Source: an uncultured cyanobacterium | GTDB taxonomy: Bacteria > Cyanobacteriota > Cyanobacteriia > Cyanobacteriales > CAWCAG01 | NCBI GenBank assembly: GCA_963803805.1 | Contig: CAWDOD010000004.1 | Span: 448,001-512,000 of the forward strand | Direction of reading: 5' to 3' | Length of the DNA stretch: 64,000 nt | Part shown: one piece after another, positions 3,553-28,871 of the stretch | How the letters are laid out: each line of letters starts with the position of its first letter | Position numbering within the stretch: position 1 is the first letter of the stretch | The notes under the pieces: model-generated | Told to the model about the DNA's origin: nothing | The model's input: only the letters and a program-made list of their open reading frames with translations | Database searches by the model: none | Program-made: the position numbers and the translations under genes

Positions 3553-3574
3553 GTTAAAATATTTCCGAGTTAGA

Positions 3575-4162: not shown

Positions 4163-4254
4163 TCAATAATTCAGTTATCTAATGATCAATAATGCCTATT
4201 AGTTGTATAACCTATCTGCTAGATATTGGTGTCTTATCTGAATATTTTTAATCC

Positions 4255-5145
4255 TTGGAATTTAGTATGAATGAAAGAATTGCTTTTTTAGGATTAGGAG
4301 TTATGGGCGGCTACATGGCTGCTAACTTAGCTAAGGAAGGTTATCTGGTTAAGGGTTGGAATCGTACTCCTGATCGTCCTGGAGTTGCAATTGCTACCGA
4401 TGGTGGTGTCGAGGTTGTTTCCTCCTTGGAAGAGGCAGTTAAGGGGGCAGATGTTGTCTTTGTTTGTGTGGGAGATGTACCGGATGTTGAGGAAGTTATC
4501 TTAAGCAAGGAAGGGGTGGCCGAATATGCTGTTTCTGGTACATTGGTGGTGGATATGAGTACCATTGGTACTGAAGCTGCCAAGAGAATTGGCACAGCCC
4601 TAAAAGCAAAGGATATGCACTTTCTGGATGCCCCTGTTTCCGGAGGAGACGTGGGGGCAAAGCAAGGAGTCCTGACGATTATGGTAGGGGGAGAAGAAGA
4701 AGATTTTGTCCAATGCCAACCCTTGTTTGCAGCTATGGGTAAAAATATTCGCCTTTGTGGACCGGTAGGTAGCGGACAAGCTGTTAAAATGTGCAATCAA
4801 GTTCTTGGTGCTGTTCATATGGTGGCTTTGTGTGAAGCAATGCAACTGGCACAAAAGTTGGGTATTGACCCTAACTTAATTATAGAAGTTTGTAGTACCG
4901 GAGCCGCTAGTTCTTGGGCCCTTTCTAATTTAGGAGAGAAAATTATTCAGCAAGATTATCAACCTGGTTTTGCGATCGCACATATGCTCAAAGATTTGCG
5001 ATTAGTGAAAGAATCTGGTGCTGTAAAAGACTTACCGGGGGTAGAAATTGCGGAACGATTATTTAAAATAGTTGAGGAACTTGATGGCGATGGGGGGAAA
5101 GAACAAGGTACTCAAGCAATGATTCGAGCTTATTTAGAAACATAG
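4255..5145 (+). CDS. NAD(P)-dependent beta-hydroxyacid dehydrogenase (3-hydroxyisobutyrate / tartronate semialdehyde reductase family)
   Basis: FLGLGVMG Rossmann motif, FLDAPVSGG, catalytic Lys in GQAVKMCNQ. Confidence 0.9.
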   Translation: MEFSMNERIAFLGLGVMGGYMAANLAKEGYLVKGWNRTPDRPGVAIATDGGVEVVSSLEEAVKGADVVFVCVGDVPDVEEVILSKEGVAEYAVSGTLVVDMSTIGTEAAKRIGTALKAKDMHFLDAPVSGGDVGAKQGVLTIMVGGEEEDFVQCQPLFAAMGKNIRLCGPVGSGQAVKMCNQVLGAVHMVALCEAMQLAQKLGIDPNLIIEVCSTGAASSWALSNLGEKIIQQDYQPGFAIAHMLKDLRLVKESGAVKDLPGVEIAERLFKIVEELDGDGGKEQGTQAMIRAYLET

Positions 5146-5291
5146 ATGAACCAACAAAAATATCTCTACTTTTTTATTATTTTTTATCTATAAAATAGTA
5201 GCAAAAAAATCAAGAATCACTCTGGATTTTGCTCTAACAATTTAATGTAGTTAGCACTATACTAAGTTAGCTACGTAATAACAAGTAACCT

Positions 5292-5900
5292 ATGGATATA
5301 CCTGTTAAATCAAGCTACTTGCTGATTCAAGATGCGAATATTCATTATCTCGAAGCAGGGAAAATTGATGCTCCTAGTGTTGTTTTCCTTCATGGAGCCA
5401 CTTTTAATGCCCAAACTTGGCAAGAAATTGGTAGTTTAGAAATCTTGGCTAAACAAGGTTATAGAGCGATCGCCGTAGATTTACCTGGTTGTGGCAACTC
5501 AGAAAGCCTTTCTACAGGATCTTTACAGGAATTTATTCCAGAGTTTTTTGCCAAACTTAGTCTTGATTTGCCAGTTTTAGTAGCCCCTTCTATGAGTGGC
5601 GGTTACAGTCTCCCTTTCATTGTCAAACATCAAGAGAAATTAAGAGGTTTTGTACCTATTGCTACAGTAGGAATCTCTCGACTAGCTGAACAATTAAAAA
5701 AGGTTACCACTCCTACTTTAGTCATTTGGGGCAACCAAGACCCGCTCATTCCCCCCACCCAAGCAGATGTTTTGGTAGGAATAATGCCCAATGCCCAAAA
5801 AGTAATTTTAGAAGATTCTGGTCATGCTTGCTATTTAAGCGCTACTGAGCAATTTCATGAATATTTAATGAACTTTGTAGCTAGTTGTACGTCTATATAA
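5292..5900 (+). CDS. Alpha/beta hydrolase (ABHD14-like)
   Basis: VFLHG, DLPGCG, nucleophile elbow PSMSG, Asp in GNQD, His in SGHACY. Confidence 0.85.
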   Translation: MDIPVKSSYLLIQDANIHYLEAGKIDAPSVVFLHGATFNAQTWQEIGSLEILAKQGYRAIAVDLPGCGNSESLSTGSLQEFIPEFFAKLSLDLPVLVAPSMSGGYSLPFIVKHQEKLRGFVPIATVGISRLAEQLKKVTTPTLVIWGNQDPLIPPTQADVLVGIMPNAQKVILEDSGHACYLSATEQFHEYLMNFVASCTSI

Positions 5901-6119
5901 ATCAATCAGTAATTGCTAGTAGGTGCTAATTCCTGCAATTAAAATCTGCTCTTTGGAACCAATTAAATAAAATAATAACCAGAAAGTATCTGGAGTAAAT
6001 TTGCTATGATAACAGCCATTAAGCTAGGGTATTTCTGGCAAGAAATTATCTTCAACTTAAGTGAAAAGCAAATCTCCTTACCCTAGCCAGTCAAATAATT
6101 AACTTCAAAAATATCTTTT

Positions 6120-7748
6120 ATGAAAGTTTTACTTCTTTACCCTTTATTTCCCAAAAGTTTCTGGTCTTTTGAAAAAACCCTAGAGTTACTAGGCCATAAA
6201 GCTATGCTTCCCCCTTTAGGGTTAATAACCGTAGCTGCTATCCTACCCCAAGAATGGGAATTTAGGTTAGTTGACCGCAATGTGGGGGATGTTACTGAAG
6301 CTGATTGGGAATGGGCAGATTTAGTTATCCTTTCGGCAATGATCGTCCAGAAAGAAGATTTACTAAACCAAGTTAAAGAAGCAAAAAGAAGAAATAAAAA
6401 AGTAGCAGCAGGAGGCCCCTATGTTACGGCTTTATCAGAGGAAGTAAAAGCAGCAGGGGCTGACTATCTTATTTTAGATGAAGGGGAAATTACCATGCCC
6501 CTTTTTGTTGAAGCTTTAGCTAGGGGAGAAACATCAGGAACATTTAGTTCTGAAGGTGTCAAACCTGATGTTACCAGCACTCCTGTTCCTTTGTTTGAAT
6601 TATTAGATTTTGATGCCTATTCAGAAATGGCTGTACAGTTTTCCCGTGGCTGCCCTTTCCAATGTGAATTTTGCGATATCATTGTTCTCTACGGTCGCAA
6701 ACCCCGCACCAAAGCACCAAAACAGTTGATTGCTGAGTTAGAAAGACTCTACGAACTAGGCTGGCGACGCAGCATTTTCATGGTGGATGATAATTTCATT
6801 GGTAATAAGCGCAACGTGAAATTATTACTCAAAGAATTGCAACCCTGGATGGCAGAAAAAGGCTACCCCTTCACCTTCGCCACAGAAGCTTCTGTGGATT
6901 TAGCTAATGATCAAGAATTAATGGATCTTATGGCTGCTTGCAACTTTGGGGCAGTTTTCTTAGGGATTGAAACCCCCGACGAAGGCAGTTTAGCTGTCAC
7001 AAAGAAATTCCAAAATACCAGAGATCCCCTTACTGAGTCGGTGGAAAAAATCATCCATTCTGGTTTACGAGTTATGGCGGGATTTATCATCGGTTTTGAT
7101 GGAGAAAAAACTGGGGCAGGCGATCGCATTGTGAGGTTTGTAGAAAAAACCACCATCCCCACGGCAATTTTCAGTATGCTACAAGCCCTGCCTGATACGG
7201 CACTGTCACACCGCCTCAAAAAAGAAGGAAGGCTACGGGAAGAATCAGCGAATATTAACCAGACTACCTTAATGAACTTTGTTCCCACCCGTCCCTTAGA
7301 AGAAATTACTGGGGAATATATACAAGCATTCTGGGATTTATACGAACCAAAACGCTTTTTAGAAAGGACTTATCGCCACTATCGCCTGTTAGGAGAAGCA
7401 CCTTGTCATAACCAAGCCCGTCCTAAAAGAAAGAAAAGTTCCGGGGGACAAAAGCGTCCTATCGGAATGCTAATTAAAGCAATGTTGACGATCTTCTGGC
7501 GACAGGGAGTAGTAAGGGATACTCGTTGGCAATTTTGGCCTTATTTATTTAGTATGCTGAAGCATAACCGCCGAGGCATCGGCAGCTATTTAGGAGTTTG
7601 CGCCCAAATTGAGCATTTTCTGGAATATCGCCAAATTGTTAAAGAGCAAATTGAAGCCCAGTTAGCTATATTTTTAGCAGAAGAAGAGAAGTTGCAAGCT
7701 AAGTTAGCCCAACAAGAAAAAGAAGAAAGCTTAAAAGTGACTGCTTGA
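6120..7748 (+). CDS. B12-binding domain radical SAM protein (DUF4070-type C-terminus)
   Basis: PPLGLITVAA cobalamin-binding region, SRGCPFQCEFC CxxxCxxC motif, VDDNF. Confidence 0.9.
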   Translation: MKVLLLYPLFPKSFWSFEKTLELLGHKAMLPPLGLITVAAILPQEWEFRLVDRNVGDVTEADWEWADLVILSAMIVQKEDLLNQVKEAKRRNKKVAAGGPYVTALSEEVKAAGADYLILDEGEITMPLFVEALARGETSGTFSSEGVKPDVTSTPVPLFELLDFDAYSEMAVQFSRGCPFQCEFCDIIVLYGRKPRTKAPKQLIAELERLYELGWRRSIFMVDDNFIGNKRNVKLLLKELQPWMAEKGYPFTFATEASVDLANDQELMDLMAACNFGAVFLGIETPDEGSLAVTKKFQNTRDPLTESVEKIIHSGLRVMAGFIIGFDGEKTGAGDRIVRFVEKTTIPTAIFSMLQALPDTALSHRLKKEGRLREESANINQTTLMNFVPTRPLEEITGEYIQAFWDLYEPKRFLERTYRHYRLLGEAPCHNQARPKRKKSSGGQKRPIGMLIKAMLTIFWRQGVVRDTRWQFWPYLFSMLKHNRRGIGSYLGVCAQIEHFLEYRQIVKEQIEAQLAIFLAEEEKLQAKLAQQEKEESLKVTA

Positions 7749-7781
7749 TTTTCAAAGGCTAATAGCTAATTGTCTTACTTT

Positions 7782-7820
7782 TCCATCTCTCTAGCTTATA
7801 AAACCGCTAGGTGAGATGGA
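7782..7820 (+). terminator. Stem-loop after the radical SAM gene
   Basis: TCCATCTC-TCTAGC...GCTAGG-TGAGATGGA imperfect inverted repeat with T-rich flanks. Confidence 0.5.
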
Positions 7821-8085
7821 TATTTTGTTAGGATTATGTTCAGTAATTAGGGACAGAAAGGCAATATTTTAGGATGCTTTGTGTGATGAAATGCTATTCC
7901 TTGCCCCCTTAACCGTCAATTTTCAATTATACAGACCACTAGCTTGCACTTAAGTTTTTGACATCCTCTATAGGGATAAATCTAGAGTTATAAACAAGGT
8001 TATTTAGAATCTCTAGAGACAGATGTACTAGGACAAAGCATTTAATTAAGCTAACGAAGTATCATTAAAATGCCTTGAACCTATC

Positions 8086-9600
8086 ATGACCTCTTTACCT
8101 GGAAAACCAGCTTCTTTTTGGATTGATTCTACTCTAGAAACTAATTATCCCACCTTAATTAATGATGTTACTGTTGATGTGGCTATTGTGGGAGGTGGGA
8201 TTGCTGGTATAACCGCAGCAATGCTTCTTAAAAATGCTGGTAAAAGCGTTGCAGTTGTGGAAGCCAAAAGTATTGCTACAGGAGTTAGCGGACATACTAC
8301 AGCGAAAGTTACCTCTTTGCATCAACTAATTTATGCTGACTTAATTAAAGAGTTTGGTGAAGATAAAGCGAGGATTTATGCTGAGTCTAACCAAGCAGGG
8401 GTTGAACAAGTAGCGGATTTGGTTGCCCAAGAAGGAATTGATTGTGACTTTAGTCGCCAGAGTACCTATACCTTTGCAGACTCTGCTAAACATCTTGACA
8501 AAATTGAAGCTGAATGTGAAGCTGCCCTGAAAGTTGGCTTGCCTGCTTCTTTTGTGACAGAAACTTCCTTACCCTTTGCAATTGCTGGGGCAGTTAAAGT
8601 AGATAATCAAGCCCAGTTCCATGTTCGCAAGTATCTACTCCACCTAGCTGATAAAATCGCTGGGGAGGGTAGTTATGTTTTTGAGAATTCGAGGGTAGAA
8701 AAGATTGAAGAAGGTACGCCTTGTGAGGTAATTACAAGTCAAGGGAAGGTAAAAGCCCAAGATGTTATTGTCGCTACCAACTTACCCATCCTTGATCAAG
8801 GGTTATTCTTTGCTAAATCCTATCCTAAACGTTCCTACATTATTGGTGCAGCTATTGACCCAGAAAAAGCACCGGAAGGGATGTTTATTGGCGTAGGGGA
8901 TGACTATCATTCCATTCGCACCACCCCTTACCAAGGAGGCAAACTCTTACTCATTGGTGGTGGTGGACATAAGGTTGGGGCTATTTCCAATACAGAAGAA
9001 AAGTACCTTGCTTTAGAAGCATATGGACGTTCTCAGTTTGGCATCGATAATTTTGATTATCGCTGGTCTAGTCAGGATATGGTTTCTTTTGATAAGTTAC
9101 CTTACATTGGTAAACTAACCCCAGCTAACAAGCATATCTATGTGGCCACAGGGTTTAGTCTTTGGGGTATGAGTAAAGGTACAATGGCAGGAATGCTGCT
9201 GAAAGATTTAGTTTTAGGGCAAGAAAACTCTTGGGCTGATCTTTACGAAGCCACCCGTGCAACTCCTTTTGTGACTAAGGAGTCTTTGAAGAACAATGCT
9301 GAGGTAGGATTAAATTGGATTGGCGATCGCTTAAAAGCCTTGAAAAATCCTTCCTTAGCTGATGTTGGTGTGGGTGAAGGTAAAATTGTTCTTGTGGATA
9401 AAGAACCTACGGCGGTTTATAAAGACGAACAAGGAAAAATCCATGCTGTTTCTCCCGTTTGTACTCATTTAGCTTGTATCGTTAATTGGAATAGTGCCGA
9501 GAAGAGTTGGGATTGCCCCTGTCATGGGGCGCGTTTTACTTGCGAAGGTCAAGTAATTCAAGGGCCAGCAATTAAAAATTTGGAGAAGAAAGTTATTTAG
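8086..9600 (+). CDS. FAD-dependent oxidoreductase with C-terminal Rieske [2Fe-2S] domain (YhfW-like)
   Basis: VAIVGGGIAG FAD motif; Rieske boxes CTHLAC and CPCHG. Confidence 0.9.
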   Translation: MTSLPGKPASFWIDSTLETNYPTLINDVTVDVAIVGGGIAGITAAMLLKNAGKSVAVVEAKSIATGVSGHTTAKVTSLHQLIYADLIKEFGEDKARIYAESNQAGVEQVADLVAQEGIDCDFSRQSTYTFADSAKHLDKIEAECEAALKVGLPASFVTETSLPFAIAGAVKVDNQAQFHVRKYLLHLADKIAGEGSYVFENSRVEKIEEGTPCEVITSQGKVKAQDVIVATNLPILDQGLFFAKSYPKRSYIIGAAIDPEKAPEGMFIGVGDDYHSIRTTPYQGGKLLLIGGGGHKVGAISNTEEKYLALEAYGRSQFGIDNFDYRWSSQDMVSFDKLPYIGKLTPANKHIYVATGFSLWGMSKGTMAGMLLKDLVLGQENSWADLYEATRATPFVTKESLKNNAEVGLNWIGDRLKALKNPSLADVGVGEGKIVLVDKEPTAVYKDEQGKIHAVSPVCTHLACIVNWNSAEKSWDCPCHGARFTCEGQVIQGPAIKNLEKKVI

Positions 9601-9627
9601 CTTTGTTAGCAGAAAGCCTACTTTTTA

Positions 9628-9662
9628 CCCAATCTGGCACAAAATTGAGATGCTGGATTGGG
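9628..9662 (+). terminator. Stem-loop after the oxidoreductase gene
   Basis: CCCAATCTGGCA...TGCTGGATTGGG inverted repeat. Confidence 0.5.
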
Positions 9663-9695
9663 AGGGGTGTGATTGCAATTATGACTTCCCCATTC

Positions 9696-9731
9696 TTACA
9701 TCTTTAGAACGAGTTACATCTTTAGAACGAG
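9696..9731. repeat. Exact 18-bp tandem duplication
   Basis: TTACATCTTTAGAACGAG twice in tandem. Confidence 0.9.
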
Positions 9732-9802
9732 TGCAGTAAGGAATCAAGAATGTTAAGAAGGGTAAAGAAAGTGAAATTTACCAGACTACTGCACAGAACA
9801 AA

Positions 9803-11041
9803 TTGAGACATCTAAGAGACATCCACTTAAAAAACTTACTTCTTCTGTTTAGTACAGGTCTATGCTTTTGGTTAAGCATAACTTCCTTGCTGCCTGTTCT
9901 ACCCGCTTATATTCAAGATGTAGGGGGAACACCTCAGCAAGTAGGTTTTGTTATGGGTAGTTTTGCCATTGGTTTGCTACTTAGCCGTAACCCCATGGGA
10001 AATCTTGCTGATCAACGCAGCCGTAGGCTAGTAATCTCCATTGGTACTCTAGTAGTAGCGATCGCACCTTTAGGCTACCTATTTGCTAAATCAATTCCGA
10101 TTTTAATCCTCCTACGATCATTCCACGGCATTAGTGTAGCTTCTTTCACCATTGGCTATAACACCTTGGTTGTCGCCCTGTCTCCCCCTAAACAGCGAGG
10201 GCAAACCATTGGTTATATGAGTTTAGTCATTCCCCTTGGTTTAGCATTGGGGCCAGCTTTTGGAGGATTACTACAAGAACAAGTTGGTTACGCCTCCTTA
10301 TTCCTTTTATCTTCTGGCATTGGTTGGCTGGGTTTGCTTTTATCTTGTCAAATTCATGAACCAGTTAAGGAAAACAATGCAACCAACTCTCACAAGCAGG
10401 AAACTTCCCCTCCAAATTCTTTTTGGCAAACTGTCTCCAGTCCGCGTTTAAGGGTTCCCACTACAATTCTTTTACTCATTGGTTTAGTCTTTGGTACTTT
10501 AATAACTTTTTTGCCTTTATTTATCCGTCATATTCATCTAAACCTCAACTCAGGTTGGTTTTATACTGCTGCGGCGATCGCCAGTTTTAGTGTACGCATC
10601 TATACAGGTAAAGCCTCAGATTATTATGGCAGGGGAATATTTATTACAGGTAGTTTGGTTTGCTATGCCGTTTCCATGGCAATTTTAGCTTCAGCAAATA
10701 GTTCAGTAGCTTTTATTATTGCCGCAGTATTAGAAGGGGCAGGGGCAGGAATCCTCATACCAATGACTATTGCTTTAATGTCTGATCGTTCCCTAGATGA
10801 TGAACGTGGTAGAATTTATGCTATTTGTTTAGGAGGATTTGATTTAGGTATTGCTATTGGTGGTCCAGTTTTAGGTTCTTTAGCTGAGTTTTTGGGTTAT
10901 CGAGGAATCTTTGGCATAGCCGCTATTTTAGCAAGTTTAGCCCTAATTGTTTTCCTAACTCAATCAAGCAAAAGTTTCGGTCATTCTTTACGCTTTGCTA
11001 CAGGAAAAGAGAAAGATATTTATGCCTTAAAACAATCTTAA
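9803..11041 (+). CDS. MFS transporter
   Basis: About 12 hydrophobic segments; motif A-like GNLADQRSRR and GKASDYYGR. Confidence 0.9.
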   Translation: MRHLRDIHLKNLLLLFSTGLCFWLSITSLLPVLPAYIQDVGGTPQQVGFVMGSFAIGLLLSRNPMGNLADQRSRRLVISIGTLVVAIAPLGYLFAKSIPILILLRSFHGISVASFTIGYNTLVVALSPPKQRGQTIGYMSLVIPLGLALGPAFGGLLQEQVGYASLFLLSSGIGWLGLLLSCQIHEPVKENNATNSHKQETSPPNSFWQTVSSPRLRVPTTILLLIGLVFGTLITFLPLFIRHIHLNLNSGWFYTAAAIASFSVRIYTGKASDYYGRGIFITGSLVCYAVSMAILASANSSVAFIIAAVLEGAGAGILIPMTIALMSDRSLDDERGRIYAICLGGFDLGIAIGGPVLGSLAEFLGYRGIFGIAAILASLALIVFLTQSSKSFGHSLRFATGKEKDIYALKQS

Positions 11042-11089
11042 TTTCATGGCTCATTAAATTTGGGTTTGATTTTCACAGATGTCTATTAG

Positions 11090-11656
11090 TCACTTACGAA
11101 CAATAACTACCGTACCTTCACTAACTTGTTCATACATCTGTTCAATATCAAGATTACGCATCCGCAAACAGCCGTGGGAGACGGCTTCTCCTATTGACCC
11201 TTCTTGATTACTACCATGGAAACCAATTTGGTGAACATCGTCTCCATCAGACCAAAAACCAATCCACCTTGAGCCTAAAGGATTGTCGGGGCCAGGGGGA
11301 ATTACTTCTCCGGTAATAGGTTGATACCAAGCCGGGTGATCATTCATGTCCTTGACTAAAAAAGTACCTGTGGGGGTTTCCCAACCATCTTTACCAACGG
11401 CTACAGGATAGCTAGTAACTAACTCGTCAAACTCATATAAAGATACTTCGCGATCGCTTAAATCTACTACTAAACGACTACTTAAAGAAGCTGATAGTCG
11501 TAATAAAGGTGAAGAAGTTAGTTCTGCTGGGGTAAACTCTTGTTCAGAAGTTGCGGCGATCGCCCGTTCGGTTTTTGGTCGCTTTCCTTCCCAAAATAAG
11601 GCGCCAGCAGTCATAAAACAGAGAAACATGATACTAAATTGCACAGAATTAGTCAT
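11090..11656 (-). CDS. L,D-transpeptidase (YkuD family)
   Basis: YPVAVGK, TPTGTF, NPLGSRWI, IGFHG...SHGCLRM catalytic motif. Confidence 0.92.
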   Translation of the reverse strand: MTNSVQFSIMFLCFMTAGALFWEGKRPKTERAIAATSEQEFTPAELTSSPLLRLSASLSSRLVVDLSDREVSLYEFDELVTSYPVAVGKDGWETPTGTFLVKDMNDHPAWYQPITGEVIPPGPDNPLGSRWIGFWSDGDDVHQIGFHGSNQEGSIGEAVSHGCLRMRNLDIEQMYEQVSEGTVVIVRK

Positions 11657-12336
11657 TGGTCACAACTAAGCATCGCTACGTAATTTTGAACCTGGAGGTC
11701 AATGCCTGTAATAGCAGTTCCTACAACTACAGCATAGGCTCCCCATTCTAGCGCTTTTTTAGCCATAGATGGAGAGGCAATTCCTCCTTCACAAATGGCG
11801 GGGATATCTAATTTTGTGACCATTTCTTGCAGTAATTGCCAACCGGGAGGAGATAAATCTTTAGTTTGGGAAGTGTAGCCATAAAGAGTTGTACCCACAA
11901 GATCCGCCCCTGCTTGTGTGGCGGCGATCGCATTTTCTATGGTATCAACATCAGCCATGACTAATTTATCTAATTCTTGGTGAATGCGACGAATTAATTC
12001 CTCTAAAGTTTCGCCGTTAGGACGTTTTCTGTTTGTCCCGTCAATAGCAATAATATCAGCACCCGCTTGGGCGATCGCCACAGAATCACTAAAGCGCGGA
12101 GTTATATAAACTTCGCAACCTGGAATTTGCTGTTTCCATAAGCCAATAATTGGTACATCTCCAATTTTCTCTCGTACGGCTTGAACATGATCAGGAGTAT
12201 CCAACCGTACCCCCATTGCACCACAGTTGATTGCTGCTTTAGCCATAGCTGCAATTATTGAAGGGTGGTGTAAAGGTGAATTTGTTGGTGCTTGACACGA
12301 AACAATCAGACTATTTTTTAAGGAAGTTAAGATCAT
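11653..12336 (-). CDS. nanE: N-acetylmannosamine-6-phosphate 2-epimerase
   Basis: LIVSCQA, PIIGLWK, VYITP, GTTLYGYT, EGGI, VVVGTAIT. Confidence 0.92.
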   Translation of the reverse strand: MILTSLKNSLIVSCQAPTNSPLHHPSIIAAMAKAAINCGAMGVRLDTPDHVQAVREKIGDVPIIGLWKQQIPGCEVYITPRFSDSVAIAQAGADIIAIDGTNRKRPNGETLEELIRRIHQELDKLVMADVDTIENAIAATQAGADLVGTTLYGYTSQTKDLSPPGWQLLQEMVTKLDIPAICEGGIASPSMAKKALEWGAYAVVVGTAITGIDLQVQNYVAMLSCDQ

Positions 12337-12453
12337 TGATTATTAATCATTAAGCATTAAACCCACATTGGGCCGATAGTTCATCAAAAACAATAATTAA
12401 AAGGTTTGATCGTCAATCTTGTCAAGAAGTTCTTCTCTCTCATGAACAGGACA

Positions 12454-13437
12454 CTATCGATTAACTCTAATCTTAGCTAAATAAATAAAGAAAGGCGCAC
12501 CTACTAATGCTGTCATAATACCAACAGGTATTTCTTGAGGTTGTATAATTAACCTAGCAGCAATGTCCGATGCTAAAAGCAATATGGCTCCTAACAAGGC
12601 GCTGTAGGGCAAAATCCAACTATAGTTGACCCCAACTAAAAACCGCGCTACATGGGGTACAACTAAACCCACAAAACCAATTGCACCAGCAACAGCAACA
12701 GCACTACCATCTAACAGAATAACACAACCCAAAGCCGCTAGTTTGACCAAAGCGGTTCTCTGCCCCAATCCCTTTGCTACATCTTCTCCTAAATTCAACA
12801 CCGTGATTTGCCGCCCAAGGATGAGACTTAAAGCCATGCCTATGGCTATATAAGGAATAATTTGCCCAAATAGACTAGCATCAGCACCGGCTAAGGAACC
12901 AGCTAACCAAAAACGGATTTCTTCTAGGGTGCGTTGACTAATAATTAAGATAGCAGTGGTGAGGGAAGTTAGGAAAGCACTAATGGCTGCACCAGCAATG
13001 GTTAAGTTGAGGGGGGTAATACCACTGCGCCCTAAAGAGGCTAAGAAATAAATACTAATAGCTGTGATACCAGCCCCGGCAAAGGCACACCAGATATGAA
13101 AACTTGGTGAGCCTGTACCGAACAAAAAGATTCCCATCACCACAGCAAAGGCTGCACCGGAATTAATGCCTAAGATGCCAGGATCAGCTAAGGGATTGCG
13201 AGTGATGCCTTGCATAACAGCCCCGGAAGTAGATATGGCTGCACCCACAATCATAGCAGTTAGGGAGCGCGGCAAGCGAATGCTACGAATAATCAAATGT
13301 TCCGTTGAACCGTCAAAGGCAATTAAGGATTGATAAATACTCTTTCCCGGAATAGCCGTTGTCCCAAAGGAAATACTCAGTAATAAGCAGGTTAGGAGTA
13401 GGATAAGTCCTGCAATTAAGCCATAAACTCTTTTCAT
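12454..13437 (-). CDS. Iron-siderophore ABC transporter permease (FecCD family)
   Basis: IRLPR, TRNPLADPGILG, LGEDVAKGLG, IGFVGLVVPH, EIPVG. Confidence 0.92.
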   Translation of the reverse strand: MKRVYGLIAGLILLLTCLLLSISFGTTAIPGKSIYQSLIAFDGSTEHLIIRSIRLPRSLTAMIVGAAISTSGAVMQGITRNPLADPGILGINSGAAFAVVMGIFLFGTGSPSFHIWCAFAGAGITAISIYFLASLGRSGITPLNLTIAGAAISAFLTSLTTAILIISQRTLEEIRFWLAGSLAGADASLFGQIIPYIAIGMALSLILGRQITVLNLGEDVAKGLGQRTALVKLAALGCVILLDGSAVAVAGAIGFVGLVVPHVARFLVGVNYSWILPYSALLGAILLLASDIAARLIIQPQEIPVGIMTALVGAPFFIYLAKIRVNR

Positions 13438-23733: not shown

Positions 23734-24070
23734 ATCTCACTCCAAAGCTTAGCCAGAGTATAGCTGAAGAAGAACTATCTTTTTAGTTTAAACGCACATA
23801 TTGCACATATACATTCAAAGTCCTTTTTCAGACAAAATCATCTCACAGCCTAGTAAGAGTAGTAAAGTTGAGCTTTGTTGTCAAGATTTAGAGACAATTT
23901 TTATCTTCAATAAATGTTTCAATTAACCAATTTTCTTAGTTGGGGAAAGATATAGGCTTTATACCATATCAATGGCAAAGATTTAATTGAGTATCTCCAG
24001 CTTAAAAAGGAGACAGTTTTCTTCTTTGCTGCCAACAGAAAACTTAGCAGAACGAAATGGAGTATCCAAT

Positions 24071-24736
24071 ATGAAGCTTTTAATCCAGGGCAATAATATT
24101 GTAGTCACCGATGCAATTCGTGAGTATGTTAATACCAAGTTAGAAAAATCTGTTCGACACTTTCAAAATATCACCAGTACTATTGATGTACACTTATCGG
24201 TAGGACGCAATCCCCGGATCACAGGCAGACAAAAAGCAGAGGTTACAGTTCATGCTAATGGTACTGTCATACGCGCTCAGGAGAGTAGCGAAGATTTGTA
24301 CGCTAGCATTGATTTGGTTTCTGATAAAATAGCCCGTCAGCTACGCAAGTATAAAGAAAAACATTTGCATAATAAGACTCATGCCCAACCTAAAACTGGG
24401 GTTATGATTGAAGATGAGCCAGTGGTAGGAGATTTAGTGGGCGATCGCACCCCTGAATTACCTAGTGAGGTGGTACGGACAAAATACTTCACTATGCCAC
24501 CAATGAGTATAGAGGAGGCTTTAGGCAATTTACAGTTAGTTGACCACGATTTCTATATGTTCTGCAACGAAGAAACAGGACAAATCAATGTTATTTACCA
24601 ACGCAATCATGGTGGTTATGGTGTGATTATACCCCGCCCTAGTAATAGTGAAAGCAATGGTAAGAATGGTAGTAATGGCCATGTTAAAGAAGCAGACTAT
24701 GAATCATTAGAGGCATATCCTGCTGCCCAGGTTTAG
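24071..24736 (+). CDS. hpf: Ribosome hibernation promoting factor, long form (LrtA)
   Basis: [10 protein letters not shown] start, [19 protein letters not shown]-terminal VRTKYF...DHDFY...YQRNHGGYG. Confidence 0.93.
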
Positions 24737-24773: not shown

Positions 24774-25793
24774 TTAGTTTTCTCGAATAATTAGAGTATA
24801 CTTTCCCTTACTGCCGGACTCATAACTATTAACAATAATGCGATAGGTATCTTCTTTTGGTAAAGTAATCGTTAGCCGAGAATTTTTATTTTCGTTGCTA
24901 ATATCGTCATTTTCGCCGATTACCTGATTATCAGAATTAACTATAGCTAAATAAGCATCAAAGTCTTCGCTTTTTAAGGAAATAGTTATTGATTGGGCTG
25001 TAGTTCCTAGAAAAGGATAACTATCATATAAACTGCTATCTGAACTAAGAGCGTTATCTCCTTCTTCTAAAGCTCCTTCTTTTACCATTAAAGGTAGGGA
25101 ATCTTCATAGCTTTGGGCATAAGCGATCGCACAGAGATTGCCAAAAACAGAATGAACATCACAAGCAACTCCTGTGGCACTGTAGTTTGGTTCAAGGATA
25201 TTTTGTCGATGGATGCGGTTAGGAATACCATCATCAATAACCATCAACATAACAATATCCTGAGCGGAACTACCGCCGTAACTAATATTTTCTCCTCGCT
25301 TTCCTGTGACAATACCGTAGAGGGTAATCTTTTCCTCAAGTTTAATAGAATCCCTAGGTATCCCCTGATTCGTACTAATCCCTTCTTTTACCAAATCCTT
25401 TGCTGCCATAGACATACCGTCAAACGTTGTTAAAGGCGGCAGAGGTTGCCTTTGGCGTAGTACGGTAATTGCTTCATCTAAAGCACTAACCCCTTCTTTT
25501 GTTAAGACGATAGTACGACCAGGTATTCTTAATAAAGTATCGCTGTAATATTGTCTCATCTCCTCTAGCTGATCAGCATAAGCAGCCGGGTTTGTTCGTA
25601 CCTGGTTAATTTGGGCAATAATTTCTTGCTCCAAAACTGATTGTATGATGGGGCTGACTCGTGTAGGATTCGGTATTTCGCTTTGTGCTATCACCTCCCT
25701 ATCTTTTTCATTGGCGAAGGATGATGTAGCGTCGACTCCACCCCATAACAGGGAACTCACTAACAAGGTTGAAGATATTATTTTTAGCTGCAT
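24774..25793 (-). CDS. Secreted CAP (SCP) domain protein with C-terminal pre-peptidase (PPC) domain
   Basis: Signal peptide, INQVRTNP, GENISYG, IDDG...HRQNI; C-terminal FDAYL...ENDD...YRIIVNSY. Confidence 0.85.
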   Translation of the reverse strand: MQLKIISSTLLVSSLLWGGVDATSSFANEKDREVIAQSEIPNPTRVSPIIQSVLEQEIIAQINQVRTNPAAYADQLEEMRQYYSDTLLRIPGRTIVLTKEGVSALDEAITVLRQRQPLPPLTTFDGMSMAAKDLVKEGISTNQGIPRDSIKLEEKITLYGIVTGKRGENISYGGSSAQDIVMLMVIDDGIPNRIHRQNILEPNYSATGVACDVHSVFGNLCAIAYAQSYEDSLPLMVKEGALEEGDNALSSDSSLYDSYPFLGTTAQSITISLKSEDFDAYLAIVNSDNQVIGENDDISNENKNSRLTITLPKEDTYRIIVNSYESGSKGKYTLIIREN

Positions 25794-25890
25794 AGTTAAT
25801 TTTAGTGATCCTCAAGGTTAAGCCATTATAAAAGAAAATTCCCGAATCTTCCTAGTGAAAAGCAAATTATTTAGAAATGTATCAATGGCT

Positions 25891-25947
25891 TATTGCTATT
25901 AAATATCAATATGCTATCCTAAGCTTATTGTGAATAATTACTATCAA
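25891..25947 (+). promoter_or_regulatory. Putative sigma70 promoter overlapped by two Fur-box-like sites
   Basis: TATTGCTATT-A-AATATCAATA (25891-25911) and GAATAAT-T-ACTATCA (25932-25946) resemble TGATAAT-N-ATTATCA; TTGCTA-N16-TATCCT with an extended TG. Confidence 0.55.
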
Positions 25948-25957
25948 GAGGTGCATC

Positions 25958-26095
25958 ATGACAGTCAAATCCCAGCCAGTAAAACAGAGTAAGATTGAGA
26001 TTGAAGTCAAAAATCTTGCCCCGGAAACTAATACAGATACCACCGTTAAAGGTTATCAAAGTGGAGCCTTTGATGGGGATGATGGCTCTGATTAG
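25958..26095 (+). CDS. Unannotated 45-aa peptide, candidate RiPP precursor (MTVKSQPVKQSKIEIEVKNLAPETNTDTTVKGYQSGAFDGDDGSD)
   Basis: Translated by hand. RBS GAGGTG lies 4 nt before the ATG, a promoter lies upstream, a hairpin downstream, and the ORF is co-oriented with the JmjC oxygenase. Confidence 0.75.
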   Translation: MTVKSQPVKQSKIEIEVKNLAPETNTDTTVKGYQSGAFDGDDGSD

Positions 26096-26125
26096 TTAAG
26101 ATACTTTTTAAAATTGGTTTAGATT

Positions 26126-26236
26126 CATATAGCAATTATTAGTACCATGAGGTAAGCCTTAGACTCTATTTTTGCTAATAGCTAGTGGCGAATGGCTAAT
26201 AGAAATGTACCTCCGCAGCTTGGGAATTGCTATATG
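26126..26236. mobile_element. MITE-like repeat, family A (TATAGCAATT termini)
   Basis: 12-bp TIR CATATAGCAATT/AATTGCTATATG; internal ATGAGGTA...GCTAATG-like heptamers...GTACCTC; homologous to 41194-41303 and 63265-63350. Confidence 0.75.
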
Positions 26237-26246
26237 TCTTTTTTGG

Positions 26247-26275
26247 GGAAGTAAAATTGTTACAATTTTGCTTCC
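26247..26275 (+). terminator. Hairpin between the peptide gene and the oxygenase
   Basis: GGAAGTAAAATTGT-T-ACAATTTTGCTTCC, 14-bp arms with one G-U pair. Confidence 0.65.
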
Positions 26276-26350
26276 TTCCTTAGTTTAAGTAAAAGAGATA
26301 ACTTAATCTATTGCTGAAAAAGTATTTATAGCAATCATCCAAGAAATAAC

Positions 26351-27531
26351 ATGGAAAATCTCTCTATTAACTCTGTGATCGCAGAAATTTTATCTCCCTA
26401 CGAATTAGTCGAATTTTTTGAGAAGTATTGGACGCAAAAGAGCATTTTTATTCCTAATAATGGTCGTCGCTTCAACCAGATTTTCTCCTGGCAAAAACTC
26501 AACCATTTACTTAACTTTCATGAGTTCGATTACCCCTCTCTACGTTTAGCTAAAAATGGAGAAGTTTTACCTCCGAAAGAAAACGCTCATTTCCTGAAAC
26601 ATTGTCAAGAGGGAGCAACTTTAATCATTGATCGTTTACACAAACTGGTTCCTGAAGTAGGGCGTTTTGCCGCAGCAATCAAAGATGATTTAGGTCATCC
26701 TTTACAAGTAAATATGTATTGTTCTTGCCCCAAGTACAGGGATTCAAGTGTCATTATGATACCCACGAAGTATTTATTTTACAAGTAGATGGCTGTAAAC
26801 AATGGCATATTTTTGCTGATACAGTTAAGTACCCTTTAAAAGAAGAGAAATCATCTGCTCATTGCCCCCCCGAAAGTGAACCTTATTTAAGCTGTATCCT
26901 CGAACCTGGGGATGTTCTCTATATTCCGAGAGGACATTGGCATTATGCTAAGACAGTAGATCAACCATCTTTACACCTTACTTTAGGGGTACATTGTTTA
27001 ACGGGAATAGACTTTTTGCAGTGGTTAACAAAACAGCTAAAGGAAGAACAAGAATGGCGAACTAATTTACCGGTGATTAATAATAACTGTTCTGTTTCTC
27101 TCAACAAATACTTAGATAGTTTAACAGGGAGTTTAGCTAATTATTTACACACTAACAACTCTAGTGCTGAATATGCACAATATATAGCCAATTCAGAAAA
27201 TCTCATTCCTAAGTATGCCTTTCCCTATCAAGCGGGCTACCAAATTTTTGCCCAAGGTATCAACACAAAGTTTATGCGTCCAAAGTACCAGCGATCGCAG
27301 ATTATAGAATTACCAGGACAGCAAGGTTATAAAATTATAGTTTGGCACAAAGAAATCATCTTAAAAGGTGTCCCCAAATCTTTTGTTAATAAGTTATTTC
27401 ATCAAGAAACTTTTACTGGTATAGATGTAGCCAGTTGGTTGTCAGAGGATTTTGATTGGGAAGTAGATATTGCCCCGACTCTACGGCGTTTAGTTACAGA
27501 AGGAATTATTTTTGTTGTCAATGATGCCTAG
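26351..27531 (+). CDS. JmjC/cupin-4 Fe(II)/2-oxoglutarate oxygenase, split by a -1 frameshift in the C4 run at 26728-26731
   Basis: FFEKYW and GATLII in the first frame; HYDTHEVFILQVDGCKQW and LEPGDVLYIPRGHWH (HxD...H triad), SLHLTLG in the second. Adding one C gives NMYCSCPQVQGFKCHYD. Confidence 0.88.
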
Positions 27532-27863: not shown

Positions 27864-28871
27864 ATGACTCCTTTCTTCTGTGCCAACCTGTCTCGTCAGC
27901 TAGGGGAAGACATCATTGGTAGCGCTCCCTCTTACCAAACCTACATCATGGTAGAATGCCCTTATCCTTGGGCAGAAAATGCCTTTAAATCTCAAGGCGT
28001 TCCCCAAAACTTAAGGGAGTTGGTAGCAGAAGTTAAGGAAGCCAACTTATCTATTCGCTTTCTTTTAACCTTACCCCCGCAACCAGATCCAGAAAATCAG
28101 ACGCGGGTATTAATTTTCCAGAAACAGTCAGGGCTAGCTGTCGGTTATAAGAAACAAGCAATTAAGGTAAGCAATATCACAGATGTTGCACCACTATTAA
28201 ATAAATACTTAACATCAGAAGGTTTGCAAATTGAAGGTAAAGCCAGTAGAATCAGAGATTTCTTTGTTTGCACCCATGGAAGCCATGATAAATGTTGTTC
28301 TCGCTACGGTTATCCCTTCTTTCGCCAAGGTGTAGCTATGGTTGAGAAGCTAGGTTTAGAGGATGTAGGTTTTTGGCAAGTAAGTCATATTGGGGGACAT
28401 AGGTTTGCCCCAACCTTAATTAGCCTACCTGATGGCAGGTATTATGGGGCTTTAGACCAGGAATCTTTACAAGCAATCCTCTTACATCAAGGGGATATCA
28501 CTTGCTTAAACAGAGTTTATCGCGGTTGGGGGCTTTTACCCAGAAAAGTCCAAGTTTTAGAAAGAGAATTAATCTTACGCCACGGTTGGGAATGGTTATC
28601 TAATTCTGTTAGTTGTCGTATTCTTCAAGATTTTCCTGAAAAGAATTTAACCCAAGTAGAGTTATTTTGCCAAACCAGCAACGGAGAGACTTGTGCTTAC
28701 CAAGGAGATATTATCATAGATGAAAGTAAAACTCTGACTATGCCAGGTTCTTGTCATGCAGACAAGGCATCAACCTTTGTTAAGTATACTGCTACAAATA
28801 TTCGTCAAGTAACTAAAGTACAATCTCTAGATCATAAGCGTTCTGTATCTAGAGTCGAAAAATCAGCTTAG
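27864..28871 (+). CDS. Sucrase/ferredoxin-like (Apd1/Aim32-type) thioredoxin-fold [2Fe-2S] protein
   Basis: VCTHGSHDKCC and SHIGGHRFAP Cys/His ligand motifs; VECPYPW; YRGW. Confidence 0.9.
   Translation: MTPFFCANLSRQLGEDIIGSAPSYQTYIMVECPYPWAENAFKSQGVPQNLRELVAEVKEANLSIRFLLTLPPQPDPENQTRVLIFQKQSGLAVGYKKQAIKVSNITDVAPLLNKYLTSEGLQIEGKASRIRDFFVCTHGSHDKCCSRYGYPFFRQGVAMVEKLGLEDVGFWQVSHIGGHRFAPTLISLPDGRYYGALDQESLQAILLHQGDITCLNRVYRGWGLLPRKVQVLERELILRHGWEWLSNSVSCRILQDFPEKNLTQVELFCQTSNGETCAYQGDIIIDESKTLTMPGSCHADKASTFVKYTATNIRQVTKVQSLDHKRSVSRVEKSA

What the first reader, a model, noticed from the sequence alone, without database searches (positions are those of the whole stretch)
25958..26095. Unannotated 45-aa peptide with leader/core architecture
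The ORF is below the track's size cut-off but has a strong RBS (GAGGTG). The N-terminal 32 aa look like a leader: a basic start, a beta-strand-like KIEIEVKNL segment, and an ending TVKG that resembles the V-x-GG cleavage site of double-glycine leaders. The last 13 aa (YQSGAFDGDDGSD) switch abruptly in composition, with 4 Asp among the final 7 residues. The leader/core split is inferred.
Basis: partly seen in the sequence, partly recalled or inferred. Interest (0 to 1): 0.78.

Follow-up and report, generated by a model that had tools for sequence, protein, structure and literature searches.

The report
Conserved peptide partnered with JmjC hydroxylase
A 45-residue gene that annotation skipped is real, is conserved in many filamentous cyanobacteria, and always sits just in front of an iron-dependent hydroxylase gene, so it is probably that enzyme's private substrate and a candidate new family of modified peptides.

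Summary
The ORF at 25958..26095 (+) exists as described and is a real gene. It is under purifying selection: dN/dS is 0.067 against the sister genome, and the median is 0.20 over 335 orthologue pairs. It belongs to a family of 119 protein clusters, all called "hypothetical" where named.

In 62 of 65 named cyanobacterial loci the peptide gene is followed on the same strand by a ROX-type JmjC oxygenase. In 61 of 65 a Suc_Fer-like protein follows that. The family shares an SKIxIEVK strand motif, a variable spacer, and an Asp/Gly tail. The tail is FDGDDGSD here and DADG(S/G)D elsewhere, sometimes repeated two or three times.

The JmjC keeps its HxD...H triad and has a winged-helix C-terminal domain that resembles RiPP recognition elements (Z 5-7.3). 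A complex prediction gave only weak support.

The best reading is a dedicated precursor or substrate peptide whose tail is hydroxylated, possibly giving a metal-binding product. The chemistry is inferred, not shown.

The proposed double-glycine cleavage site (TVKG) is not conserved, and no peptidase or exporter is linked. The window's JmjC frameshift is probably an assembly error. I rate this a new variant of a known kind, since JmjC peptide hydroxylases such as BipG and CzlI are already described.

The parts
25860..25947 (+). Conserved upstream region, probably the promoter and a short 5' leader of the peptide gene
   Evidence: The roughly 100 nt before the ORF align almost without change to the sister genome, while sequence further upstream diverges. 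A TACTAT-like hexamer sits just before the RBS (read by eye). The consensus scan found no sigma-70 match on the + strand.
25948..25953 (+). Shine-Dalgarno-like GAGGTG, 4 nt before the ATG
   Evidence: It is identical in G001 and reads GGAGTT in G002. GGAG(A/G) sits at similar spacing in nearly all of the 65 loci printed.
25958..26095 (+). 45-aa peptide gene (stop codon included)
25988..26017 (+). Residues 11-20, SKIEIEVKNL: the family's conserved strand-like motif and the proposed recognition sequence
   Evidence: Invariant or nearly invariant columns in alignments A1, A2 and A5. The role in binding is inferred.
26069..26092 (+). Residues 38-45, FDGDDGSD: the conserved Asp/Gly tail and the proposed site of modification
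   Evidence: The tail is identical in 12 family members of this subtype. It corresponds to DADG(S/G)D units, repeated 1-3 times, in other subtypes. Modification is inferred.
26128..26234 (.). MITE-like insertion between the peptide gene and the JmjC gene, specific to this genome
   Evidence: Earlier scan note e1-2211124. Alignment with the sister genome shows a gap of about 106 nt at this place.
26245..26277 (+). Stem-loop between the peptide gene and the JmjC gene
   Evidence: 15 pairs, not followed by a T run. Its base is shared with G001. In related loci, 13 of 19 intergenic regions fold with z <= -2.
26351..27531 (+). ROX-type JmjC (PF08007) 2-oxoglutarate/Fe(II) oxygenase gene. In the window it reads as two overlapping ORFs (26351..26788 and 26719..27531) because of a 1-nt frameshift near 26726.
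   Evidence: A contig from another assembly of the same DNA carries one extra G after 26726, which restores the frame found in G001. Fold and catalytic residues.
27864..28871 (+). Suc_Fer-like (PF06999) protein, the third gene of the conserved module
   Evidence: E 1.4e-27. It follows the JmjC in 61 of 65 loci and in 8 of 17 loci. C136, C145, H175 and H179 (HxGGH) are invariant. It is the only copy in this genome.

Best explanation
The ORF encodes a small cytoplasmic peptide that is the dedicated substrate (precursor peptide) of the JmjC/ROX-type Fe(II)/2-oxoglutarate oxygenase encoded just downstream.

Proposed mechanism:
1. [quoted passage not shown]
2. The variable spacer lets the C-terminal Asp/Gly unit (FDGDDGSD here) reach the iron centre.
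3. One or more residues are hydroxylated there, most likely Asp at its beta-carbon. Known ROX enzymes hydroxylate beta-carbons of His and Arg.
4. The product would carry alpha-hydroxycarboxylate groups suited to binding Fe(III) or Ca(II).
5. The conserved third gene, a Suc_Fer-like protein with Cys2His2 ligands for a [2Fe-2S] cluster, would act as a redox partner or in iron release.

Shown: the gene is real and under purifying selection. The peptide-JmjC-Suc_Fer module is strictly conserved. The enzyme keeps its catalytic residues. The C-terminal domain has an RRE-like fold.

Inferred: binding, the residue modified, the chemistry, the metal link, and where the product acts.
For: Gene reality:
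- dN/dS is 0.067 against G001. The median is 0.20 over 335 pairs, and only this frame is open in all 33 distinct orthologues.
- 3 of 3 strain variants are synonymous.
- The RBS is conserved.
- 119 protein clusters match at E <= 0.01.

Linkage:
- The JmjC lies downstream on the same strand in 62 of 65 named loci, and Suc_Fer-like follows in 61 of 65.
- In a 401-genome sample of the phylum, all 10 genomes with the peptide are among the 19 with a close JmjC orthologue.
- 17 of those 19 have a motif-bearing small ORF upstream.
- The genome holds one JmjC_2 gene and one Suc_Fer-like gene, both in this module.

Enzyme:
- PF08007 matches at E 3.9e-25.
- The model has pLDDT 87.7 and its best structural matches are NO66, MINA53, YxbC and YcfD.
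- The HxD, Lys and distal His align with NO66 and are invariant.

Recognition domain:
- VIA-align gives MINA53 Z 9.8 and NO66 7.5, then RRE-bearing proteins: ThcOx 7.3, PbtF RRE 7.3, TbiB1 6.7, TigE 6.7, PqqD 6.5, McbB 6.3, MccB 5.8, LynD 5.0, NisB 4.5.

Precedent:
- PF08007 JmjC domains fused to RRE-like folds, with bacterial homologues in RiPP-like contexts, are noted in PMC12710340 (passage read).
- BipG is an ornithine hydroxylase (PMC12707348, passages). CzlI is a YxbC-like Phe hydroxylase (PMC11575548, passages).
- One close orthologue (G083) sits in a YcaO-sulfotransferase-ThcOx operon.

Precursor-like traits:
- The tail unit is repeated 2-3 times in some members.
- A stem-loop lies between the peptide and enzyme genes in 13 of 19 loci at z <= -2.

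Metal hint:
- In G274 an AMIN-TonB receptor, a periplasmic binding protein and an MFS lie between the JmjC and Suc_Fer-like genes.
- That is the order cctA-B-C-D of the cyanochelin B transport cassette, whose CctD is of the same family (bioRxiv 10.64898/2026.07.30.741596, section 5 read).

Complex prediction (weak): score 0.60, best of 3 controls 0.27. The mark was reached by 116 of 157 solved complexes and 2 of 215 mismatched pairs, but at 0.60 or under by only 18 of those 157 and by both mismatches that passed. Runs agree in at least 57% of contacts, and partner pLDDT is at least 52.
Against: - No modification has been observed and no contacts were returned.
- The RRE likeness is of middling strength. 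Foldseek found no hit at E <= 0.001 for the domain, and Z values of 5-7.3 are within the range the tool calls common. The same fold is the ordinary winged helix of ribosomal oxygenases, which do not bind leader peptides.
- No leader peptidase or exporter is conserved with the module. A classical secreted natural product is therefore not indicated for this subtype.
- The transport cassette is seen in 1 of about 80 loci examined.
- The 'core' is conserved while the spacer varies, the opposite of many RiPP families.
- In one locus (L123) the peptide gene is followed directly by the Suc_Fer-like gene with no JmjC.
- In this window a MITE separates the peptide and JmjC genes, and the assembly shows a frameshift in the JmjC, although argues that this is an assembly error.
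- The signal-peptide-bearing 'type B' small ORFs upstream of other orthologues are linked to this family only weakly by sequence (hhalign probability 20%, E 0.0011).
Confidence: 0.55

Rival explanations
1. The peptide is a partner or regulator of the JmjC enzyme rather than its substrate. It could be a pseudo-substrate or inhibitor, an adaptor that directs the enzyme to another target such as a ribosomal protein, or an acidic tail that delivers or buffers Fe(II)/Ca(II) for the enzyme and the Suc_Fer-like protein.
For: The strict co-occurrence and synteny fit any physical partnership. The tail is conserved rather than hypervariable. No protease or exporter is linked. The enzyme's nearest solved relatives act on ribosomal proteins. 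The weak complex score (0.60, best control 0.27, with the counts given) speaks of binding, not of turnover.
Against: The tail unit is tandemly repeated in some members, which suits a substrate or a multivalent product better than an inhibitor. Close relatives of this JmjC clade sit in peptide-modifying operons, and JmjC enzymes of this fold hydroxylate precursor peptides. The module is patchy across the phylum (29 of 401 genomes at E <= 1e-20), unlike a housekeeping ribosome modifier.
Confidence: 0.2
2. The peptide is an independent small acidic metal-binding protein with an EF-hand or DxDxDG-like calcium loop. It is merely co-transcribed with the oxygenase and needs no modification.
For: The tail pattern D-x-D-G-x-D, and the ...SNE ending of many members, recall calcium-binding loops (the resemblance is judged by eye against recalled patterns).
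Against: No Pfam or NCBIfam family, EF-hand included, matches. The N-terminal SKIxIEVK motif is conserved more strongly than the tail and has no role in this reading. Co-occurrence with the JmjC is complete in the genomes sampled.
Confidence: 0.1
3. One reading: a classical double-glycine-type RiPP precursor, cleaved after TVKG (residue 32) and exported as a 13-residue acidic core.
For: The overall layout is leader-like N-terminus plus acidic C-terminus. One genome has an MFS exporter inside the module.
Against: The TVKG stretch lies in the variable spacer and is not conserved in relatives. No C39 peptidase or ABC transporter is among the conserved neighbours. PmbA/TldD genes are nearby in one lineage only (16 and 13 of 65 loci).
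Confidence: 0.05
4. The ORF is a chance reading frame or a non-coding regulatory element upstream of the JmjC gene.
For: ORFs of this size are frequent (86 of at least 30 aa in 12 kb). No RNA or protein data are available.
Against: dN/dS is 0.067 and 0.20. The frame is open in all orthologues while the other frames are closed. The RBS is conserved. 119 protein clusters match. No Rfam family matches in 25500-26500.
Confidence: 0.02

Closest known systems
BipG (biphenomycin) and CzlI (curacozole): JmjC-type Fe(II)/2OG hydroxylases acting on RiPP precursor peptides
   Same: A JmjC/cupin oxygenase of the YxbC/ROX fold is encoded next to a ribosomal precursor peptide and hydroxylates a side chain (PMC12707348 and PMC11575548, passages read). 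The enzyme here has the same fold class, with YxbC 7zcc/1vrb among its matches.
   Different: In those pathways the JmjC is one tailoring enzyme among many (MNIO, rSAM, YcaO and others) and acts on Orn or Phe. Here it is the only recognisable modifying enzyme. The peptide family (SKIxIEVK plus an Asp/Gly tail) is unrelated, the likely target is Asp, and a Suc_Fer-like protein is the constant companion.
Ribosomal oxygenases (ROX): NO66, MINA53, E. coli YcfD, B. subtilis YxbC (Pfam PF08007)
   Same: The three-part architecture is the same: JmjC barrel, helical middle domain, and C-terminal winged helix. The HxD...H triad and the 2OG-binding Lys are conserved.
   Different: Per the PDB titles, the known substrates are ribosomal proteins L8, L27a and L16, not a dedicated small peptide encoded upstream. 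Identity is 16-24%.
RRE-dependent RiPP systems (PqqD, LynD, TbiB1, McbB, MccB, ThcOx)
   Same: A beta3-alpha3 winged-helix domain resembles the domain that, in those systems, binds a leader segment as an extra strand. The peptide here has a strongly conserved, alternating hydrophobic/charged segment of the right kind.
   Different: The likeness is structural and modest (Z 4.5-7.3; Foldseek E >= 0.019), and binding has not been shown. PF08007-RRE fusions have been noted in print only in passing (PMC12710340, passage).
Cyanochelin B transport cassette cctA-J with CctD, a thioredoxin-like ferredoxin (IPR009737 family)
   Same: The module's third gene belongs to the same family. In one genome (G274) the genes for an AMIN-TonB receptor, a binding protein and an MFS stand before it in the cctA-B-C-D order.
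   Different: Cyanochelins are non-ribosomal siderophores. According to that preprint the role of CctD itself is unknown. The other roughly 80 loci examined have no transport genes in the module.

Membership tests
RiPP precursor peptide with leader-dependent modification | Small ORF encoded next to its modifying enzyme, conserved across taxa | tested here: met
   62 of 65 loci; 17 of 19 close JmjC orthologues have a motif-bearing small ORF upstream.
RiPP precursor peptide with leader-dependent modification | Conserved recognition sequence in the N-terminal part | tested here: met
   SKIxIEVK columns are invariant or nearly so. Their function as a recognition sequence is inferred.
RiPP precursor peptide with leader-dependent modification | Peptide-binding (RRE) domain in or beside the enzyme | tested here: inconclusive
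   The C-terminal domain has beta3-alpha3 order. RRE proteins score Z 4.5-7.3, but ROX winged helices score higher (9.8, 7.5), and Foldseek gives no hit at E <= 0.001.
RiPP precursor peptide with leader-dependent modification | Post-translational modification of the core demonstrated | not testable with these tools
   This needs mass spectrometry of the co-expressed peptide.
RiPP precursor peptide with leader-dependent modification | Leader removal and/or export machinery | tested here: not met
   No peptidase or exporter is among the conserved neighbours. There is an MFS in G274 only and PmbA/TldD in one lineage only.
Double-glycine (C39-processed) leader peptides | Conserved GG/GA/GS at the leader end | tested here: not met
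   The TVKG stretch falls in the variable spacer, and no such motif is conserved in alignments A2 and A5 or in the 119 relatives.
Double-glycine (C39-processed) leader peptides | Adjacent C39 peptidase-ABC transporter | tested here: not met
   None is found in the window neighbourhood or among conserved neighbours.
ROX / JmjC_2 oxygenases (PF08007), for the neighbouring enzyme | Pfam match above the gathering score | tested here: met
   88.3 bits against a cut-off of 22.
ROX / JmjC_2 oxygenases (PF08007), for the neighbouring enzyme | HxD...H iron triad and 2OG-binding basic residue | tested here: met
   H135, D137, K150 and H198 (G001 numbering) are invariant in 32 sequences and align with HYD, GRK and the distal H of NO66. 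The roles of the NO66 residues are recalled, not taken from a call.
ROX / JmjC_2 oxygenases (PF08007), for the neighbouring enzyme | Intact reading frame in this genome | tested here: inconclusive
   The window shows a 1-nt frameshift. One contig from another assembly of the same DNA has an extra G after 26726 (depth 6.31 of 6.31).
Apd1/Aim32-type Suc_Fer-like [2Fe-2S] proteins (PF06999), for the third gene | Pfam match, plus C-x8-C and HxGGH ligand motifs | tested here: met
   97.5 bits against a cut-off of 34.9. C136, C145, H175, G177, G178 and H179 are invariant in 19 sequences. That these are the cluster ligands is recalled from the Apd1/Aim32 literature.
EF-hand / DxDxDG calcium-binding loops | Match to a curated calcium-loop family | tested here: not met
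   No Pfam family at E <= 0.01 and no NCBIfam family. The resemblance is by eye only.

The most novel reading that the evidence does not exclude
The module makes a ribosomally encoded metallophore. The JmjC converts Asp residues of the D-x-D-G-x-D unit(s) into beta-hydroxy-Asp, giving an alpha-hydroxycarboxylate Fe(III) chelator. It would be a ribosomal counterpart of the non-ribosomal cyanochelins. The Suc_Fer-like [2Fe-2S] protein would serve in reductive iron release. Export would be by MFS (G274) or by a Sec signal peptide (the 'type B' relatives). This would be a new RiPP class defined by a ROX-type JmjC as its sole maturase, widespread in filamentous cyanobacteria including Trichodesmium.
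Probability: 0.2. Interest if true: 0.85.

Novelty: new variant of a known kind. Interest (0 to 1): 0.66.

Why it matters
This would add a widespread peptide-modification system to cyanobacteria that annotation pipelines miss. It is present in Microcoleus, Tychonema, Trichodesmium, Okeania, Symploca, Scytonema, Stigonema and Leptolyngbya JSC-1.

It would give a physiological substrate to a bacterial branch of the ribosomal-oxygenase (ROX/JmjC) family, whose members are otherwise known for modifying ribosomal proteins.

It would assign a first concrete context to the Suc_Fer-like (Apd1/Aim32/CctD) proteins. Their role in cyanobacterial iron-uptake clusters is openly unknown (bioRxiv 10.64898/2026.07.30.741596, section 5).

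If the product binds iron, it bears on iron acquisition in bloom-forming and nitrogen-fixing cyanobacteria.

The system is small, with three genes and a peptide of 45-65 residues, and it is directly testable by co-expression and mass spectrometry.

Tried and rejected
- Expression data: the look-up of sequencing runs listed no RNA holder, so nothing can be said on expression.
- Rfam: no match in 25500-26500 at E <= 1.
- Family libraries: Pfam and NCBIfam give nothing for the peptide.
- ESM Atlas: no usable hit and no model held.
- Fused or longer forms of the peptide: none at E <= 0.001 among 8000 candidates of 105-2000 aa. The tool itself calls this weak evidence.
I repeated it with the narrower alignment A3.
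- Foldseek of the C-terminal domain against PDB: no match at E <= 0.001. I followed it with the VIA-align wide search.
- Earlier scan notes: nothing by sequence or by words.
- Sigma-70 consensus scan: no + strand promoter upstream of the ORF, and the one hit is on the minus strand inside the ORF. The scan is crude.
- Weak six-frame hits in G026, G029, G005, G028, G037 and G040: only L005 (G040) was inspected, and it has no JmjC nearby. I treated the rest as noise by their E-values and did not inspect them.
- The 10 more distant JmjC homologues (E 1e-22 to 1e-44): 9 were inspected. G127 was dropped because its match starts at the contig end. None has a motif-bearing small ORF within 1.1 kb upstream.
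- Link to the ribosome-hibernation gene hpf at 23987..24736: it is shared only with the sister genome, so I rejected it as ordinary synteny.
- Literature searches found no paper describing this peptide family or a peptide-JmjC-Suc_Fer module. Subscription journals are not covered, for example JACS 2025, 147:26693, cited in PMC12710340. bioRxiv supplements, such as Figure S1 of the cyanochelin preprint, could not be seen.

Full report
**1. The observation**

GAGGTG lies at 25948-25953, 4 nt before the ATG. The last 13 residues are YQSGAFDGDDGSD, and four of the final seven are Asp.

An ORF of this size is not remarkable by itself. One search lists 86 ORFs of at least 30 aa in the surrounding 12 kb. 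The case rests on conservation.

**2. It is a real gene**

A six-frame search of 41 related genomes found an 84% identical copy in the sister genome G001. It also found weaker copies in G002 (another genus of the family) and G016 (another family). All three lie directly upstream of a 392-393-aa JmjC gene.

- Against G001 there are 16 synonymous and 7 non-synonymous differences: dS 1.02, dN 0.069, dN/dS 0.067.
- Of 65 related loci from named genomes, 35 have ORFs of exactly 50 codons and 33 of these are distinct. The 335 pairs with usable divergence give a median dN/dS of 0.20 (quartiles 0.16, 0.20, 0.25).
- The other five frames carry stops in 32, 33, 33, 21 and 33 of the 33 sequences.
- A second assembly of the same DNA shows three variants inside the ORF (26041, 26065, 26068). 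All are synonymous third-position changes (codons read).
- A GGAG-type ribosome-binding site precedes the ATG at similar spacing in nearly all loci.
- A profile search of 5.8 billion protein clusters returned 119 relatives of 42-99 aa. None has a Pfam domain, and all are 'hypothetical protein' where a name exists. They come from Microcoleus, Coleofasciculus, Trichodesmium, Okeania, Symploca, Moorea, Brasilonema, Rhizonema, Zarconia and others.

**3. Anatomy of the family**

The family has three parts:
- A variable N-terminus is followed by the strongly conserved segment (R/K)xSKI(Q/E)(I/V)EVK(E/D/N)(I/L/V). In the window peptide S11, K12, I13, E16, V17 and K18 are invariant or nearly so.
- A spacer of about 12-17 residues follows, with no conserved positions.
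- The peptide ends in a conserved Asp/Gly unit.

The window belongs to a subtype ending GAFDGDDGSD. The commonest subtype ends LN(V/F/T)D(A/S)DG(S/G/D)D(V/L/I)SNE. Some members repeat the unit two or three times, for example the ...FDADGGDRN... repeats of Trichodesmium, Okeania and Dapis.

**4. The genomic module**

In 65 loci of named cyanobacterial genomes, clustering of neighbouring ORFs shows:
- a JmjC gene downstream on the same strand in 62. Two of the three exceptions are contig ends. In the third, L123, the Suc_Fer-like gene follows the peptide directly.
- a Suc_Fer-like gene after the JmjC in 61;
- a convergent GNAT acetyltransferase in 58 (Pfam). This one is absent from the window.

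Other neighbours are lineage-specific housekeeping genes.

In a 401-genome sample of the phylum, 29 genomes have a JmjC homologue at E <= 1e-20 and 19 have a close one at E <= 1e-90. Of those 19:
- ten carry this peptide type;
- seven carry a longer small ORF with an RIEIEVxxL-like motif, a hydrophobic signal-peptide-like N-terminus (judged by eye) and DYD-, NYDYSR- or DQN-rich repeats;
- two carry none. One of these, G083, has the JmjC inside a YcaO-sulfotransferase-ThcOx operon.

The sequence link between the two peptide types is weak (hhalign probability 20%, E 0.0011). It rests mainly on position and motif.

The window's genome has a single JmjC_2 gene and a single Suc_Fer-like gene, both in this module.

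**5. The enzyme**

The window's JmjC reads as two overlapping ORFs (26351..26788 and 26719..27531). A contig from another assembly of the same DNA has one extra G after 26726 at full depth (6.31 of 6.31). This restores the frame seen in G001, so the frameshift is most likely an assembly error.

- The G001 protein modelled with 32 homologues has pLDDT 87.7.
- Its best solved neighbours are NO66, MINA53, B. subtilis YxbC and YcfD-type L16 arginyl hydroxylases.
- The HxD, a Lys after the second strand, and the distal His are invariant and align with NO66.

Residues 296-392, modelled alone (pLDDT 83.6), fold as three to four strands followed by three helices. Foldseek gives no hit at E <= 0.001. 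Its weak list mixes ROX winged helices with McbB, ThcOx, LynD, MccB, TigE, PqqD and TbiB1.

VIA-align gives MINA53 Z 9.8 and NO66 7.5. RRE-bearing proteins then follow at Z 4.5-7.3: ThcOx, PbtF RRE, TbiB1, TigE, PqqD, McbB, TbtB, MibB, MccB, lasso B1, CteB, LynD and NisB. The tool warns that Z under 8 may be only a common arrangement, so this is suggestive rather than decisive.

A 2025 paper notes PF08007 JmjC domains fused to genuine RRE-like folds, with bacterial homologues in RiPP-like contexts (PMC12710340, passage read).

**6. Binding test**

The G001 JmjC (alignment A4), its peptide (A5) and Fe were submitted to complex prediction. The verdict was weak support:
- Score 0.60 (runs 0.58, 0.62, 0.60), best of three controls 0.27.
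- The mark was reached by 116 of 157 solved complexes and 2 of 215 mismatched pairs. At 0.60 or under it was reached by only 18 of those 157 and by both mismatches that passed.
- Runs agree in at least 57% of contacts, and partner pLDDT is at least 52.
- No contacts were returned, so this says nothing about whether the tail reaches the iron.

**7. The third gene and the metal hint**

The Suc_Fer-like protein (27864..28871; PF06999, E 1.4e-27) has invariant C136, C145, H175 and H179 within C-x8-C and HxGGH motifs. From recall, this is the ligand pattern of the Apd1/Aim32 bis-histidinyl [2Fe-2S] proteins.

In G274 three genes lie between the JmjC and the Suc_Fer-like gene: an AMIN-domain TonB-dependent receptor, a Peripla_BP_2 binding protein and an MFS_3 transporter. 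That is the order cctA-cctB-cctC-cctD of the cyanochelin B transport cassette. [quoted passage not shown]

The same preprint classes cyanochelins A and C as alpha-hydroxycarboxylate siderophores. Beta-hydroxy-Asp is such a ligand, and a beta-carbon hydroxylase acting on an Asp-rich tail would make it. This is one locus out of about 80 and remains a hint.

**8. Further operon features**

- The roughly 100 nt upstream of the ORF are nearly identical in G001.
- A stem-loop lies between the peptide gene and the JmjC (window 26245-26277).
- Comparable hairpins occur in related loci: 13 of 19 intergenic regions fold with z <= -2 against mononucleotide shuffles. One of the 20 chosen was skipped because the ORF call left only 28 nt.
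- In the window, a MITE of about 106 nt is inserted between the ORF and this hairpin (earlier scan note e1-2211124; alignment gap).

**9. Interpretation**

The best-supported reading (about 0.55) is a dedicated substrate or precursor peptide. It would be recognised through the SKIxIEVK strand by the RRE-like domain of a ROX-type JmjC and hydroxylated in its Asp/Gly tail.

Gene reality and the three-gene linkage are shown. Binding has weak computational support. The residue, the chemistry and the metal-binding function are inferred.

Rivals:
- partner or regulator rather than substrate (0.2);
- unmodified calcium-loop-like small protein (0.1);
This is not supported, because the TVKG stretch is not conserved and no C39 peptidase or ABC exporter is linked.
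- chance ORF (0.02).

**10. Comparison and novelty**

JmjC-type hydroxylases acting on ribosomal peptides are known. BipG is an ornithine hydroxylase and CzlI is a YxbC-like Phe hydroxylase (passages read). Both are accessory enzymes in multi-enzyme pathways.

Three things are new here:
- a large, unnamed peptide family with its own recognition motif and an Asp/Gly core;
- a ROX-type JmjC as the only recognisable maturase;
- a constant Suc_Fer-like companion.

Five full-text searches found no description of it. Subscription journals and bioRxiv supplements were not visible. I rate it a new variant of a known kind, with interest 0.66.

The boldest reading not excluded is a ribosomal beta-hydroxy-Asp metallophore system. 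I give it about 0.2.

Noticed in passing
window 26351-27531 (near 26726): The JmjC gene is split by a 1-nt frameshift in the window. A contig from another assembly of the same DNA has an extra G after 26726 at full depth, so the break is probably an assembly error rather than a pseudogene.
   Followed up: yes
It is absent from the sister genome. Its effect on co-transcription is unknown.
   Followed up: partly
L048 (G274) 2187-9551: An AMIN-TonB receptor, a Peripla_BP_2 protein and an MFS_3 transporter are inserted between the JmjC and Suc_Fer-like genes. The order matches the cyanochelin transport cassette cctA-D.
   Followed up: partly
L050 (G083) 7058-12975: A close JmjC orthologue (49% identity) is the last gene of a YcaO - sulfotransferase - ThcOx-type oxidase operon (an azole RiPP cluster). 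No SKIxIEVK peptide is present there, and its precursor peptide was not looked for.
   Followed up: no
L024-L031, L051-L058 (type B loci): Other JmjC orthologues are preceded by 70-128-aa ORFs with a signal-peptide-like N-terminus, an RIEIEVxxL-like motif and DYD, NYDYSR or DQN repeats. A convergent ~280-aa protein with no Pfam or NCBIfam match follows in 7 loci, and a BOF-like secreted OB-fold protein is present in 3. CHASE3 kinase and OmpR-type regulator genes are nearby in L052 and L056.
   Followed up: partly
L059-L122, about +2.4 to +2.9 kb from the peptide start: A ~150-aa GNAT acetyltransferase gene converges on the Suc_Fer-like gene in 58 of 65 loci across many genera, but not in the window's subtype. 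It could be a fourth component that acetylates the peptide.
   Followed up: partly
L123 (Iningainema MAG); L101, L105 (Rhizonema, Scytonema MAGs): In L123 the peptide gene is followed directly by the Suc_Fer-like gene with no JmjC, and the tail is degenerate. In L101 and L105 the JmjC ORFs are short (223 and 246 aa). These may be decaying copies or assembly problems.
   Followed up: no
L061-L091 (Microcoleus/Tychonema lineage), about +3.1 to +5.6 kb: A PmbA/TldD metallopeptidase pair lies convergent after the GNAT gene in 16 and 13 of 65 loci. TldD/E-type proteases process some RiPPs, but here the linkage is limited to one lineage.
   Followed up: no
window 24774-25793 (-): A secreted-looking protein with CAP and PPC (pre-peptidase C-terminal) domains is transcribed divergently from the peptide gene. 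It is shared only with the sister genome.
   Followed up: no
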